Shown here in pieces: positions 21,550 through 23,886 of a stretch of 64,000 bases of DNA. The position numbers and the translations under genes were made by a program. The DNA comes from Candidatus Margulisiibacteriota bacterium (lineage in GTDB: Bacteria > Margulisbacteria > WOR-1 > O2-12-FULL-45-9), in contig JBAZZP010000002.1 in the NCBI GenBank assembly GCA_041658745.1, positions 76,833 through 140,832 of the forward strand, given 5' to 3'. The notes below the pieces were generated by a model that was not told the DNA's origin, searched no databases, and worked only from the letters and a program-made list of their open reading frames with translations. Position 1 is the stretch's first letter, and each line of letters starts with the position of its first letter.

Positions 21550-23886
21550 TTAAAACGTTCCGTTTATCAAGCTTCCCGCTGCTGATGCTCCATCAGTTGC
21601 AGTAACATCCGGTCGGATGATAGAGGTAAGATCGTCGATATTATAAAACTCAGCAATTTGAAGAGCAATTTCGTTTTGAGTAAGATTTTGATACTGTAGT
21701 CTGCCAGTCAGTAAAGCATTTACAATTTCTCTGCGTTCCGCATAATTTGCCGTTGAAATTCCAAAATTGGTCAAAGCCTCGTTTAACTTCCTGCCTTGGG
21801 TTTCAAGTTCTCCTTTCTTTGAAAATAATAAAACATATTGATCAGAATATTTTTGAATAATATTTGATTTTTCATACATGGAAAAATAGATTCCAGTTAT
21901 TCGCTTGGTTGCAGTTTCCGATAAAACCAGCCCTCCTCCCCTTGTCCCATCCACATTGGCTTGGTCTAATGCTGCTTTTTCTTCTACATTAAGGATTGAT
22001 GCGTCCCATCTTCCGGTAGCAATATAATTAGTTACTAATTTGTGAGCAGCTACTTGTTCTAATGGTATAGCCCATTGCTCAAAATCTCTTAAATTCTCAT
22101 AGGGAACCCCATGAAACAACTTATAATAGGCTATATAAGTTTCATTTATGTCTTTTGAGGTTGCAGCTGGATTTTGAGCAAAATCACTTAAAAAATGATT
22201 ACAAGATTGATTAAAACGCAATTTTCTACCGGCAGTATCTGTGCTTTTAAAAGTTGATTGCCAGCCATTAACCATTATTGAAGATGCTATATCGGTTATC
22301 ATTCTCAAATCACTATCAATTGTTGGAGTAGAATGAATAACTTCACCTGAACGAGCCCCGTTTTTTTCAAAAACAAAAACCCAATTTGAGAAATCGTTAC
22401 TCCCCCATTTAGCGCTTACTACATTCCCATCTCCATTTTTTTCAACATCATAGTAGACAAAGTTGGTTGAAAGGGTTGAATTAAGTTTTGCGGCAGATTT
22501 ACGGTCAACTTTAGCAGGATTTGTCTGCGGTTCCTCTAGCATCCAGCAGGTACTGCCACTATTTTGTGAAATTTGGGTATAGGCTGGATAATTAGCAAAA
22601 TTAAAGTCCTGAATTATGGATTCTGCTATTGCAGGAGGGAATGTTTTATATGTAACTGTACCAAGTTCAATCTTAATTCTTCCAAGCCCAACATTTTCTT
22701 CGGTGACCTCTTCACTGATTGAAGATTTATAGGTATACTCAATTTGGCCATTTTCGGCTTTTCGAATAACTATTCGCTGTCCAGGGGGTGGTGCATAGCT
22801 AAGCAATTCGAGTTCATTCGCAATGAATGGACTGATTGTCTGCTGCGTACCATCATCCCCAACCCAAACCCACCCGCTACCAGTTCTCAATAATTCAGCT
22901 CCTTGTGGAATAGCCGTGGTAAAAGCATAGGTTTGACTCCGGTAATGGTCGGTAACATACATTAATGAAAATCTACCGGCATTCGAACGGCCTGCCAGAG
23001 CAGTATCGTATTGGGGAATTCCGCGACTATCGGAACCGATTGGAACGTAATATTCCATGGGAGGTCCGCCAGATATATTTATTTGCGCATACATTTGTCC
23101 ATCAACCCGCACAATAATTTTGCTCACATCTGCTTTTGTATATATTTCTAGCACCACTTCTTGTGCTTGACTCCATTCAGTTGCCACGGCATCAAGTCCC
23201 TTTTCAAATATTACTGCCGATAATTGTGGGGTTGAAGCTAACGCGCTGGCAGTTGCAGCATCTAGGCCTTCCGTAACTGGCTTTACGTCTCTTATCAACC
23301 CTTCTGGGGCAATAAGGGCAAGAGCACTGGTGTCTGACGGGGACATATGAATACAACCATGGCTAAAATATAGATGACCAAGTAACTCATTAAAAAGACC
23401 AGGATAATCGTAGCTTTGAAGGCCAGTGGTTAGTTGTCCCATTGCTGAACTATAAGCCGATTGTTCAATCCGGTTAAGAGTATGTTCTACCGCAGGTCTA
23501 TCACTAGCTGTGGCCAATTCTGTTCCTGCAGCACTAGCTGCGGCTTGTCTTGGCTGGATCTTTCCACTAACTGAAAAGGCAGTTACGATGTTTTCTTCAG
23601 TCGTTCCTTCTTTTAATAGACCGATCCGATTAAGTTCAGAATAAACATAACTAACACTACAGGTCAGTGTTCCAGCCTGGCTACTGGCCTTTATCCCATG
23701 ATATAAGACCCTTTTTACTGCAACGGCAGAAACACCTTCTCGCAGAACACCAGCTGCAACCAGATCCGAATATAATTTATCAACATTGGCGTTTTCTGAG
23801 CTCTCGCCAGTTGCAAGTGCTAATATTGGGCCACTAAGTTGTACAGAATTCACCATACAATTGATCCTCTTTGACGGCTTATTCAA
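21550..23886 (-). CDS. Large (778 aa) hypothetical protein with an internal L,D-transpeptidase-like SHGCIH motif; no signal peptide
   Basis: Long ORF divergently transcribed from the 24060 gene. Motif LYFSHGCIHMSPSD around residue 200 resembles the YkuD catalytic loop. The rest is unassigned and rich in S/T/N/Q/Y. Confidence 0.45.
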   Translation of the reverse strand: MNKPSKRINCMVNSVQLSGPILALATGESSENANVDKLYSDLVAAGVLREGVSAVAVKRVLYHGIKASSQAGTLTCSVSYVYSELNRIGLLKEGTTEENIVTAFSVSGKIQPRQAAASAAGTELATASDRPAVEHTLNRIEQSAYSSAMGQLTTGLQSYDYPGLFNELLGHLYFSHGCIHMSPSDTSALALIAPEGLIRDVKPVTEGLDAATASALASTPQLSAVIFEKGLDAVATEWSQAQEVVLEIYTKADVSKIIVRVDGQMYAQINISGGPPMEYYVPIGSDSRGIPQYDTALAGRSNAGRFSLMYVTDHYRSQTYAFTTAIPQGAELLRTGSGWVWVGDDGTQQTISPFIANELELLSYAPPPGQRIVIRKAENGQIEYTYKSSISEEVTEENVGLGRIKIELGTVTYKTFPPAIAESIIQDFNFANYPAYTQISQNSGSTCWMLEEPQTNPAKVDRKSAAKLNSTLSTNFVYYDVEKNGDGNVVSAKWGSNDFSNWVFVFEKNGARSGEVIHSTPTIDSDLRMITDIASSIMVNGWQSTFKSTDTAGRKLRFNQSCNHFLSDFAQNPAATSKDINETYIAYYKLFHGVPYENLRDFEQWAIPLEQVAAHKLVTNYIATGRWDASILNVEEKAALDQANVDGTRGGGLVLSETATKRITGIYFSMYEKSNIIQKYSDQYVLLFSKKGELETQGRKLNEALTNFGISTANYAERREIVNALLTGRLQYQNLTQNEIALQIAEFYNIDDLTSIIRPDVTATDGASAAGSLINGTF

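What the first reader, a model, noticed from the sequence alone, without database searches (positions are those of the whole stretch)
21550..23886. 778-aa orphan protein with an internal LDT-like Cys loop
The protein is very large and has no signal peptide. Its composition is rich in S/T/N/Q/Y. The single recognisable element is SHGCIH, a near match to the YkuD catalytic HGC[IV]R loop, embedded about 200 residues from the N-terminus, with about 550 residues of unassigned sequence. Such a protein could be a polymorphic-toxin-like or effector protein.
Basis: inference. Interest (0 to 1): 0.55.

Follow-up and report, generated by a model that had tools for sequence, protein, structure and literature searches.

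The report
Rearranged cell-wall transpeptidase-like enzyme, leaderless variant
The "orphan" is a divergent, signal-peptide-less member of a small protein family confined to the uncultivated phylum Margulisiibacteriota. Its conserved Cys loop is a genuine L,D-transpeptidase (YkuD) active-site segment, but by sequence the pieces of the domain come in a circularly permuted order.

Summary
The ORF and the SHGCIH motif are real (window 21550-23886, minus strand). The likely start is the ATG at 23856, giving 768 aa.

The protein is not a true orphan. An exhaustive HMMER search found 42 related clusters, all from Margulisiibacteriota/Saganbacteria/WOR-1 MAGs. They share a ~458-aa module that occurs once or twice per protein.

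S-H-G-C-[LIFM]-H is invariant in all 37 motif-bearing modules. It decays only in the N-terminal copy of two-module proteins.

The motif segment is homologous to the C-terminal 30 residues of the YkuD domain (Pfam hits in 18/29 members; hhalign P=1.5e-7). The β-region that follows it aligns to the N-terminal half of YkuD (score 29.9 against at most 18.9 in 30 shuffles). Only the reordered sequence aligns colinearly across the whole domain (P=2.6e-8, 132 columns). This points to a circularly permuted YkuD fold followed by a ~200-aa helical domain.

Every full-length relative outside the target's sub-branch has a signal peptide. The target's rare sub-branch has a ~150-aa helical N-terminus instead. 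It sits tail-to-tail with a small Ca-loop protein and a leaderless YafK-like YkuD enzyme, and this arrangement recurs in one other MAG.

The polymorphic-toxin hallmarks that could be checked are absent. The finding is a new variant of a known kind, of moderate interest.

The parts
21550..23856 (-). Coding sequence of the 768-aa protein. The ORF remains open up to the TTG at 23886.
   Evidence: ORF list. An AGAGGA RBS lies 8 nt before the ATG at 23856. The NCBI record is 768 aa and 100% identical.
23437..23856 (-). N-terminal ~140-aa helical extension (aa 1-140) that stands where relatives have a signal peptide. It is specific to the leaderless sub-branch.
   Evidence: AF2 secondary structure and pLDDT. 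It is shared only with P0006 and the L034 727-aa ortholog. There is no PDB or Pfam match.
23269..23400 (-). Segment M (aa 153-196), homologous to the C-terminal ~30 residues of the YkuD domain. It forms strand-helix-strand and carries SHGCIH (23347-23364), with the putative nucleophile Cys168 at 23353-23355.
   Evidence: Pfam YkuD positions 116-141/146. The motif is invariant in 37 modules. hhalign P=1.5e-7. PDB L,D-transpeptidases are the top hits. pLDDT exceeds 90.
23161..23268 (-). Helical linker (aa 197-232) joining segment M to the β-region. In the permutation model it bridges the ancestral C- and N-termini.
   Evidence: AF2 helices H200-208, H212-219 and H221-230; family alignment.
22852..23160 (-). 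β-region 1 (aa 233-335), aligning to the N-terminal half of the YkuD domain. It includes the diverged 'PTxPGxY' element, which reads RSNAGRF in the target.
   Evidence: hhalign score 29.9, P=8.6e-4, against 13.4 for the reversed sequence and at most 18.9 in 30 column shuffles. Pfam hit of P0013 aa 178-263 to YkuD profile positions 18-84. Weak stretch colinear with B. subtilis YkuD residues 61-105.
22462..22851 (-). Sub-branch-specific insertion of about 130 aa (aa 336-465), mostly predicted with low confidence.
   Evidence: Alignment gap in all other family members. It is shared with both L034 paralogs. pLDDT is below 50 over most of it.
22321..22461 (-). β-region 2 (aa 466-512), containing 'KWGSNDFSNW' and 'GEVIHSTP'. 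His508 (22333-22335) is the candidate catalytic histidine.
   Evidence: In the reordered alignment it lines up with YkuD 'IgIHG'. The position is His in 21 modules and Tyr in 16, so the assignment is tentative.
21646..22320 (-). C-terminal all-helical domain (aa 513-737) of the family module, function unknown. Inferred to be a cap or substrate-binding domain.
   Evidence: AF2 helices at high pLDDT. It is conserved across the family as HMM positions 262-458. It has no PDB or Pfam match.
20766..21548 (+). Convergent neighbour whose 3' end lies 1 nt from the target's. It is a 260-aa YafK/DpaA-like YkuD-fold protein in canonical domain order (GIHP ... TFGCIA) and has no signal peptide.
   Evidence: Pfam YkuD 4.6e-12. 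Its homologs are named YafK, and those read carry signal-peptide-like N-termini. The same convergent pairing occurs in L034.
20266..20751 (+). Small 161-aa protein (146 aa in NCBI) with an 'IDLxxDGxxD' Ca-loop-like motif and 'YYFDLxxxxGIDLVY'. It is the conserved partner of each leaderless big protein and is fused to the YkuD protein in L034.
   Evidence: Homologs found only in L034: a 180-aa protein and the N-terminus of the 410-aa YkuD protein. No Pfam or PADLOC hit.

Best explanation
The gene encodes a cysteine enzyme of the L,D-transpeptidase (YkuD) superfamily whose catalytic domain is circularly permuted.

Domain layout:
- The segment that normally ends the domain comes first. It carries the S-H-G-C nucleophile loop, the following helix and the last strand.
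- A helical linker follows, then the β-sandwich part that normally begins the domain, including the 'TPxGxY' element.
- Next comes a strand ending in a His (His508) that would complete the Cys-His pair.
- A ~200-aa helical domain follows. I infer it caps or extends the substrate cleft, as capping subdomains do in YcbB and Tlde1a.

Inferred chemistry is that of known YkuD enzymes. Cys168 attacks an L-D peptide bond of a peptidoglycan stem peptide (mDAP-D-Ala). The resulting thioester is then resolved by an amine (cross-link, D-amino-acid exchange or protein tethering) or by water (L,D-carboxypeptidase or amidase).

The family is specific to Margulisiibacteriota and Saganbacteria, and its ordinary members are Sec-exported envelope enzymes. 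The window protein belongs to a rare sub-branch:
- The signal peptide is replaced by a ~150-aa helical N-domain.
- A ~130-aa insertion has been acquired.
- Each such gene is paired tail-to-tail with a small Ca-loop protein, with or without a leaderless YafK-like YkuD enzyme.

Where this sub-branch acts is not established. It could act in the cytoplasm, for example on muropeptide recycling intermediates, or be exported by an unknown route.

Status of each step:
- Shown: family membership, motif invariance, homology of the motif segment to YkuD, sequence-level support for the permuted order, and the conserved neighbourhood.
- Inferred: the fold in 3D, the identity of the catalytic His, the substrate, and the compartment.
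For: Family and module:
- Exhaustive HMMER finds 43 representatives including the target.
- A 458-position module HMM covers the target at aa 143-350 and 424-730.

Motif conservation:
- SHGC[LIFM]H is invariant in 37 modules.
- Degenerate motifs occur only in N-terminal copies of two-module proteins. All of those have Tyr at the candidate-His position; none has His. This is the decay pattern expected of a catalytic site.

Homology of the motif segment to the end of YkuD:
- The target scores 16.7 bits to Pfam positions 116-141/146.
- 18 of 29 members hit PF03734, the best within that alignment at 9e-9.
- P0004 scores 48 bits and P0036 32 bits.
- hhalign gives P=1.5e-7.
- The top 29 PDB hits of the family profile are all L,D-transpeptidases.

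Permuted order:
- The β-region downstream of the motif aligns to YkuD columns 112-174 with score 29.9. Reversed it scores 13.4, and 30 shuffles reach at most 18.9.
- P0013 residues 178-263 match Pfam YkuD positions 18-84.
- When the same three segments are tested in all six orders, the native order aligns only 36 columns (global P=5e-6).
- The B-H-M order (β-region, then His strand, then motif segment) aligns 132 colinear columns over the whole domain (P=2.6e-8).

Structure prediction:
- AF2 models are confident in these regions. The full-length model has pLDDT 74.6 and pTM 0.70; the core blocks exceed 90.

Localisation of relatives:
- 30 of 42 family proteins have signal-peptide-like N-termini. 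The rest are fragments or the target's sub-branch.

Annotation:
- NCBI already names some two-module members 'L,D-transpeptidase'.

Synteny:
- L034 has a 727-aa ortholog convergent with a fused small161-YkuD protein.
- L034 also has a second paralog convergent with a 180-aa small161 homolog.
Against: - The β-region alignment is modest (P about 1e-3, Prob 24%).
- The His-bearing segment adds almost nothing to the score (43.6 against 44.6).
- The candidate catalytic His is Tyr in 12 modules that keep an intact SHGC. Either it is not the catalytic base, or two mechanistic subtypes exist.
- The target itself is below the Pfam threshold, and its 'PTxPGxY' element is diverged.
- The target, the YafK-like neighbour and the small partner all lack export signals. 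That is hard to reconcile with action on the periplasmic sacculus.
- I designed the reordered constructs with the hypothesis in mind. The six-order control reduces this concern but does not remove it.
Confidence: 0.6

Rival explanations
1. It is an exported antibacterial effector or toxin of the Tlde1 type. In this reading an L,D-transpeptidase-like enzyme is delivered into competitors by a dedicated secretion route, the N-terminal helical domain is the delivery or adaptor module, and the small Ca-loop protein is the cognate immunity protein or chaperone.
For: - There is no signal peptide although the relatives are exported.
- The unique N-terminal domain stands where the signal peptide would be.
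- There is strict 1:1 pairing with a small lineage-specific protein, seen in three pairs across two genomes.
- The gene sits in a 6.7-kb stretch of poorly annotated genes with slightly lower GC, 0.37-0.40.
- There is precedent: Tlde1 T6SS effectors carry the L,D-transpeptidase motif (PMC9638812).
Against: - No variable C-terminal modules occur among the homologs.
- No T6SS/T7SS/PAAR/Rhs/LXG markers were found in the window or the neighbouring genes examined.
- The partner gene is convergent, not co-directional.
- The partner has no signal peptide. It could not protect the periplasm from a toxin aimed at peptidoglycan.
- PADLOC and PHROGs gave no meaningful hit: none for five of the six proteins, only a weak unknown-function PHROG for the YafK-like neighbour.
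- The flanking genes are chromosomal housekeeping genes.
Confidence: 0.15
2. It is a mosaic rather than a permutation. Only the ~30-residue Cys-loop segment derives from YkuD, grafted onto an unrelated β/helical scaffold. The active-site geometry and the substrate would then be new and not L,D-transpeptidase-like.
For: - Foldseek sees no L,D-transpeptidase similarity for the domain model.
- Only the motif segment gives strong profile matches.
- The candidate His is not conserved.
Against: - The downstream β-region scores about 11 units above every one of 30 shuffles against the YkuD N-terminal half. The alignment places 'PTxPGxY' on 'TPEGEFY'.
- Pfam independently aligns P0013 residues 178-263 to YkuD positions 18-84.
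- Only orders with the β-region before the motif give domain-wide colinear alignments.
Confidence: 0.15
3. It is a catalytically inert or structural derivative (a pseudoenzyme), or a decaying gene. In this reading the leaderless sub-branch lost its export signal and function, and the motif persists only because the change is recent.
For: - The sub-branch is very rare, found in two MAGs plus one fragment.
- The second L034 paralog has no start codon between the upstream stop and its motif.
- Pseudo-active N-terminal modules exist elsewhere in the family.
Against: - Three sub-branch sequences at only about 33% identity still keep S-H-G-C-x-H, the KWGSNDFS element, the GE(V/Y)xHSxPT element containing the His, and 120 invariant columns along the whole length. 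That indicates purifying selection.
- The ORF is intact and has a good RBS.
Confidence: 0.07

Closest known systems
YkuD-type L,D-transpeptidases (Pfam PF03734; e.g. B. subtilis YkuD 1Y7M, M. tuberculosis LdtMt2 3TUR, E. coli YcbB/LdtD)
   Same: - The (S/T)HGC nucleophile loop, the following helix and the terminal 'P.G..v.I' strand are homologous.
- The β-region has a recognisable counterpart of the 'TPxGxY' half of the domain.
- Most family members are exported.
- There is a large accessory domain next to the active-site segments, analogous in position to capping subdomains (inference; PMC9638812).
   Different: - The segment order is permuted, with the Cys loop ahead of the β-sandwich.
- There is no His 14-17 residues upstream of the Cys.
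- The residue after C-h is an invariant His rather than R/N.
- The β-region carries an extra ~80 residues, and a conserved ~200-aa helical domain follows.
- The target is below the Pfam threshold and lacks a signal peptide.
- Foldseek does not retrieve L,D-transpeptidase structures.
Tlde1/Tlde1a T6SS effectors (L,D-transpeptidase-like toxins, DUF2778)
   Same: They are leaderless proteins that carry the L,D-transpeptidase motif HXX14-17-(S/T)HGCh, have a structurally altered L,D-transpeptidase fold with an added subdomain, and are encoded beside a small partner gene (PMC9638812).
   Different: - The target has no sequence match to that family.
- No T6SS context was seen.
[quoted passage not shown]
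- The target is about four times larger, by my recollection of Tlde1 size, and its segments are permuted.
YafK/DpaA (LdtF)-type YkuD-fold amidases
   Same: The adjacent gene at 20766-21548 belongs to this group. Both genes therefore encode YkuD-superfamily Cys enzymes, and both have lost the signal peptide that their relatives possess.
   Different: - The target is not a YafK homolog.
- YafK-type proteins are about 200 aa, have the canonical segment order, and carry the motif W-T-x-G-C-(I/V)-A.

Membership tests
YkuD / L,D-transpeptidase catalytic domain (PF03734) | Score above the Pfam gathering threshold (23.4 bits) | tested here: not met
   The target scores 16.7 bits, E=0.011. Some relatives pass: P0004 48 bits, P0036 32.3, P0009 23.6. 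18 of 29 members hit at E<=0.1.
YkuD / L,D-transpeptidase catalytic domain (PF03734) | Active-site loop (S/T)-H-G-C-h followed by R/N | tested here: met
   S-H-G-C-I is present at aa 165-169 and invariant in 37 modules. The next residue is an invariant His instead of R/N, which is a deviation.
YkuD / L,D-transpeptidase catalytic domain (PF03734) | Catalytic His 14-17 residues upstream of the Cys (HXX14-17-(S/T)HGCh; PMC9638812) | tested here: not met
   There is no conserved His upstream in the family. The only candidate is His508, 340 residues downstream. It aligns to 'IgIHG' only after reordering and is Tyr in 16 of 37 modules.
YkuD / L,D-transpeptidase catalytic domain (PF03734) | Colinear domain: β-sandwich N-terminal half, then His strand, then Cys loop, then terminal strand | tested here: not met
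   The native order is Cys loop, then linker, then β-half, then His strand. Only the reordered sequence aligns colinearly (132 columns, P=2.6e-8, against 36 columns).
YkuD / L,D-transpeptidase catalytic domain (PF03734) | Three-dimensional YkuD β-sandwich fold | tested here: inconclusive
YkuD / L,D-transpeptidase catalytic domain (PF03734) | Export to the periplasm or cell wall (signal peptide or lipoprotein signal) | tested here: not met
   By hydropathy heuristics the target has none. 30 of 42 family proteins do.
YkuD / L,D-transpeptidase catalytic domain (PF03734) | Cys-dependent acyl-enzyme chemistry on mDAP-D-Ala bonds; carbapenem acylation | not testable with these tools
   This needs biochemistry.
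Polymorphic toxin / secreted effector | A conserved N-terminal trafficking region combined with variable C-terminal toxin modules among homologs | tested here: not met
   All 42 homolog clusters share the same module through to the C-terminus. The variation is one module versus two, not swapped ends.
Polymorphic toxin / secreted effector | Linkage to a dedicated secretion system or its marker domains (VgrG/PAAR/Hcp, LXG/WXG, Rhs, CdiB and similar) | tested here: not met
   None was found among the window genes scanned or in the called genes within about 10 kb on each side. Only type IV pilus/T2SS-like genes are present. The test is limited to the 64-kb window, not the whole genome.
Polymorphic toxin / secreted effector | Adjacent cognate immunity gene | tested here: inconclusive
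   A small protein is conserved next to every sub-branch member. It is convergent and leaderless, and no interaction or protection data exist.
Tlde1 (DUF2778) effectors | Sequence membership in the family | tested here: not met
   Pfam at E<=1 returns no family other than the weak YkuD, YPEB_PepSY1-2 and Big_15 matches.

The most novel reading that the evidence does not exclude
The leaderless permuted-YkuD protein, its 1:1 small Ca-loop partner and the leaderless YafK-like enzyme form a self-contained three-part system that works outside the normal Sec-periplasm logic of L,D-transpeptidases. It could be a new kind of interbacterial effector/partner module aimed at peptidoglycan, in a phylum where none is known. 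Alternatively it could be a cytoplasmic L-D peptide-bond enzyme pair that acts on muropeptide or other D-amino-acid-containing substrates. More broadly, the permuted family would be the phylum's own route for covalent envelope cross-linking or tethering. The conserved divergent Lys-rich/Pro-rich secreted neighbour of the exported members would be a candidate substrate.
Probability: 0.15. Interest if true: 0.7.

Novelty: new variant of a known kind. Interest (0 to 1): 0.45.

Why it matters
L,D-transpeptidase-fold enzymes shape peptidoglycan, tether outer-membrane proteins, confer β-lactam bypass resistance and serve as T6SS toxins. The two literature searches I ran found no paper describing a circularly permuted version; that is not proof that none exists.

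If the permutation is confirmed structurally, three things follow:
- The YkuD active site would be shown to tolerate relocation of the Cys loop to the other end of the chain.
- Roughly 40 'hypothetical' protein clusters in Margulisiibacteriota and Saganbacteria would gain a family definition.
- There would be a candidate for how this sister lineage of Cyanobacteria remodels or tethers its envelope.

The leaderless sub-branch, with its obligate small partner, is a compact and testable oddity. The result is not a paradigm shift. The chemistry is probably familiar, and automated annotation already calls some two-module members 'L,D-transpeptidase'.

Tried and rejected
- The word-indexed protein search found only the protein itself, and phmmer against the PDB found nothing.
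- Foldseek found nothing below E=0.1. This covers the full-length model against the PDB and the domain-only model against the PDB and BFVD viral structures. The hits were helical or thioredoxin noise.
- PADLOC gave no hits for the island proteins or their L034 counterparts. PHROGs gave only one weak unknown-function hit (E=0.0024) for the YafK-like neighbour. I dropped defence-system and prophage readings.
- The family alignment A1 was too divergent for a pattern scan, so I used a motif-centred alignment instead.
- A metagenome scan for more members of the leaderless sub-branch returned only the L034 contig again.
- A profile search for small161 returned only the two known genomes.
- The N-terminal extension profile had no PDB match.
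- I tested whether the window's small OMP-like gene (19609-20133) is homologous to the conserved neighbour of the exported family members. The only similarity is in the signal peptide and low-complexity region, so I rejected it.
- Composition bias (S/T/N/Q/Y) was checked and is not unusual.
- The 'STGCIH' string in the 699-aa Big_5 protein is a chance look-alike inside a repeat.
- Two literature searches for a permuted YkuD found nothing relevant.
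Full report
**Observation**

The ORF at 21550..23886 (-) exists and is 778 aa from a TTG. An ATG at 23856 is preceded by AGAGGA at 8 nt. It gives the 768-aa protein deposited for a Candidatus Margulisiibacteriota MAG (WC890_01975). I use 768-aa numbering below.

SHGCIH is at aa 165-170, window 23347-23364 (-). It is the only strict [ST]HGC[LIVMF][HRNK] match in all six frames of the window. No hydrophobic stretch qualifies as a signal peptide or TM segment.

S/T/N/Q/Y content is 31.4% against 25.8 ± 6.7% for 42 window ORFs, so the composition is unremarkable. Pfam gives only a sub-threshold YkuD match: 16.7 bits against a cutoff of 23.4, aa 161-186 to profile positions 116-141 of 146. 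NCBIfam, PADLOC, PHROGs and PDB sequences give nothing.

**Not an orphan**

The word-indexed search finds only the protein itself. Exhaustive HMMER against 1.84 billion representatives finds 43 proteins including the target, 37 of them at E<=1e-10. They are built from one ~458-residue module (HMM built). Some have the module once, after a signal peptide (~450-540 aa). Others have it twice in tandem (~900-980 aa). The target contains the whole module (aa 143-350 and 424-730), a ~130-aa insertion and a ~140-aa N-terminal extension.

A motif-based scan of one genome per GTDB species returned 29 loci. Every named one is Margulisiibacteriota, Saganbacteria or WOR-1. The one exception is a 3.9-kb contig binned as an archaeon, probably a misbinning. 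NCBI names some two-module members 'L,D-transpeptidase'. The target and its closest relatives are 'hypothetical protein'.

**The motif is catalytic-looking and YkuD-derived**

S-H-G-C-[LIFM]-H is invariant in all 37 modules that carry it. The motif is degenerate in the N-terminal module of 9 of the two-module proteins (P0007, 8, 10, 11, 12, 14, 17, 18, 19), while their C-terminal motif is always intact.

Homology evidence:
- 18 of 29 members hit Pfam YkuD. P0004 reaches 48 bits and P0036 32 bits.
- The match is always to the last ~30 profile positions (115-146).
- A family profile retrieves only L,D-transpeptidases as its top 29 PDB hits: YkuD at 0.004 and LdtMt2 at 0.007.
- hhalign of the motif segment against an alignment of 40 YafK-type YkuD proteins gives Prob 94 and P=1.5e-7.

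**Circular permutation**

In canonical enzymes the Cys loop ends the domain. Here it begins the module. Four lines of evidence bear on the order of the pieces.

1. Pfam aligns P0013 aa 178-263, which lie after its motif at aa 96, to YkuD profile positions 18-84.
2. hmmsearch gives a weak stretch colinear with B. subtilis YkuD residues 61-105, covering 'PTxxGxY'.
3. hhalign of the downstream β-region (HMM 89-258) aligns it to YkuD columns 112-174, placing 'PTxPGxY' on 'TPEGEFY'. The score is 29.9 (P=8.6e-4), against 13.4 when reversed and at most 18.9 in 30 column shuffles.
4. I took the same three segments (M = motif, B = β-half, H = His strand) in all six orders.
   - The native M-B-H order aligns 36 columns (global P=5e-6).
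   - Orders with B before M align 99-132 colinear columns.
   - B-H-M is best, at P=2.6e-8 over the whole domain, and puts 'ELIHSSG' on 'IgIHG'.

The H segment contributes almost nothing statistically. Its His is Tyr in 16 of 37 modules, 12 of which have an intact SHGC. All four complete modules with a degenerate motif are of the Tyr type, and none is of the His type. That fits the Cys loop and this position belonging to the same active site.

**Structure**

AF2 with the family alignment gives pLDDT 74.6 and pTM 0.70 for the full length. The model has these parts:
- helices at aa 20-160;
- strand-helix-strand at the motif;
- three linker helices;
- β-strands at aa 234-333 and 468-508;
- a low-confidence insertion;
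- an all-helical region at aa 511-737.

**Context**

The window is ordinary chromosome. It carries thiL, a PepT-like peptidase, homoserine dehydrogenase, a ZIP transporter, a PBP, histidine kinases and type IV pilus genes. Between an OMP-like gene and the ZIP gene lie six poorly annotated genes, none with an obvious signal peptide:
- small161 (20266-20751);
- a YafK-like YkuD protein (20766-21548);
- the target;
- two weakly paralogous NAGPA-like proteins (24060-24785 and 24848-26128);
- a 309-aa ORFan.

The target's stop and the YkuD gene's stop are 1 nt apart, convergent.

A second MAG contig (L034, JBAYJF010000013.1) repeats the arrangement:
- A 727-aa leaderless ortholog has the same N-domain, SHGCVH, and the same insertion.
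- It is convergent with a 410-aa protein, overlapping it by 20 nt. That protein is a fusion of a small161 homolog and the YkuD enzyme.
- A second paralog is convergent with a stand-alone 180-aa small161 homolog.

small161 homologs exist only in these two genomes. A metagenome scan found no further sub-branch loci. Homologs of the YafK-like neighbour have signal peptides. Both YkuD-superfamily genes in this cluster have therefore lost theirs.

The exported two-module members sit in variable housekeeping contexts. In 19 of 29 loci there is an adjacent gene, usually upstream and divergent, for a ~240-aa secreted protein. It has a Lys-rich mature N-terminus, a Pro-rich linker and a Gly-rich C-terminal domain, and it has no Pfam match. 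It is not detectably related to the window's OMP-like gene.

**Interpretation**

I commit to this reading. The target is a divergent member of a phylum-specific family of Cys enzymes with a circularly permuted YkuD catalytic domain and a helical accessory domain. It uses L,D-transpeptidase-type thioester chemistry on L-D peptide bonds of peptidoglycan stems or peptidoglycan-linked proteins. My confidence differs by component:

| Claim | Confidence |
|---|---|
| Family membership and motif homology | about 0.9 |
| Circular permutation | about 0.7 |
| Peptidoglycan-directed chemistry | about 0.55 |
| Compartment of the leaderless sub-branch | open |

The polymorphic-toxin reading fails the tests that could be run:
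- There are no variable C-termini.
- No secretion-system markers were seen.
- The partner gene is convergent and leaderless.

A Tlde1-like effector/partner reading keeps about 0.15 probability because of the lost signal peptide and the 1:1 partner. A mosaic reading, in which only the loop is YkuD-derived, keeps about 0.15 because Foldseek is negative. A pseudoenzyme reading keeps about 0.07. It is disfavoured by 120 invariant columns among three sub-branch sequences that share only 33% identity.

**Novelty and score**

This is a new variant of a known kind. The two literature searches I ran found no paper on a permuted YkuD. The canonical motif definition HXX14-17-(S/T)HGCh and the precedent for altered L,D-transpeptidase folds with capping subdomains come from PMC9638812. 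Margulisbacteria and Saganbacteria are reported to have OmpM-type outer-membrane tethers (bioRxiv 10.1101/2021.05.31.446380). A covalent tethering role for this family is only a speculation. Interest is 0.45.

Noticed in passing
window 24060-24785 (+) and 24848-26128 (+): Two adjacent genes. The first is a NAGPA/phosphodiester-glycosidase domain protein (Pfam 1e-12). The second is a 426-aa weak paralog of it (phmmer 1.6e-6). Neither has an obvious signal peptide, which is unusual for this envelope-type enzyme family. They lie directly upstream of and divergent from the target.
   Followed up: partly
window 26103-27032 (-): A 309-aa ORFan with no Pfam, NCBIfam, PADLOC or PHROG match. Its 3' end overlaps the convergent 426-aa gene by 26 nt.
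   Followed up: no
window 21548/21550; L034 11515-11534; L034 8590/8621: The leaderless big genes and their partner genes always meet tail-to-tail: 1 nt apart in the window, a 20-nt overlap in L034, and a 30-nt gap for the second L034 pair. No terminator-like hairpin lies between them, so the convergent transcripts may interfere with each other.
   Followed up: partly
L034 6572-8590 (+): The second paralog (P0003/P0085) is called from position 6962 or 7001. The open frame, however, extends upstream through an intact '...LLGDLYLSHGCIHVSP...' motif with no ATG/GTG/TTG after the preceding stop. The cause could be a non-canonical start, an assembly error or a decaying gene.
   Followed up: partly
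L002 3773-4504 (-), L005 3742-4467 (-), and 17 other loci among L002-L027: Next to the exported two-module family genes in 19 of 29 loci lies a conserved gene, usually upstream and divergent. It encodes a ~240-aa secreted protein with mature N-terminus 'AQxK(I/V)(I/V)(R/K)K...', a Pro-rich linker and a Gly-rich domain ending in QPIKL. It has no Pfam match. It is a candidate substrate or partner of the family.
   Followed up: partly
P0007, P0008, P0010, P0011, P0012, P0014, P0017, P0018, P0019 (two-module homologs): The N-terminal module has lost the SHGC motif (for example SNGD, DDGN, GNGS, SRDC) while the C-terminal module is always intact. These look like tandem pseudoenzyme-enzyme pairs.
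   Followed up: yes
L029 (JAQVRT010000065.1, 3.9 kb): A family member sits on a short contig assigned to a 'Candidatus ainarchaeum' MAG. Since the family is otherwise exclusive to Margulisiibacteriota, this is probably a binning error.
   Followed up: no
window 17428-19527 (-): A 699-aa protein with a lipoprotein-like signal (…VVGC), a Thr-rich linker, Big_5 Ig-like domains and a C-terminal series of 'YxSLxxD…I…SYYD'-type repeats. It contains a chance 'STGCIH' look-alike of the motif.
   Followed up: no
window 19609-20133 (-): A 174-aa protein with a signal peptide, a (K-P-K-V-V-V)n basic/Pro-rich stretch and a weak OMP β-barrel match (E=5.5e-4). It is divergent from the small161-YkuD operon. 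It resembles the conserved neighbour of the exported family genes in architecture only.
   Followed up: yes
window 54204-54959 (-): A 251-aa ORF with the highest S/T/N/Q/Y content in the window (45%). It was not examined.
   Followed up: no
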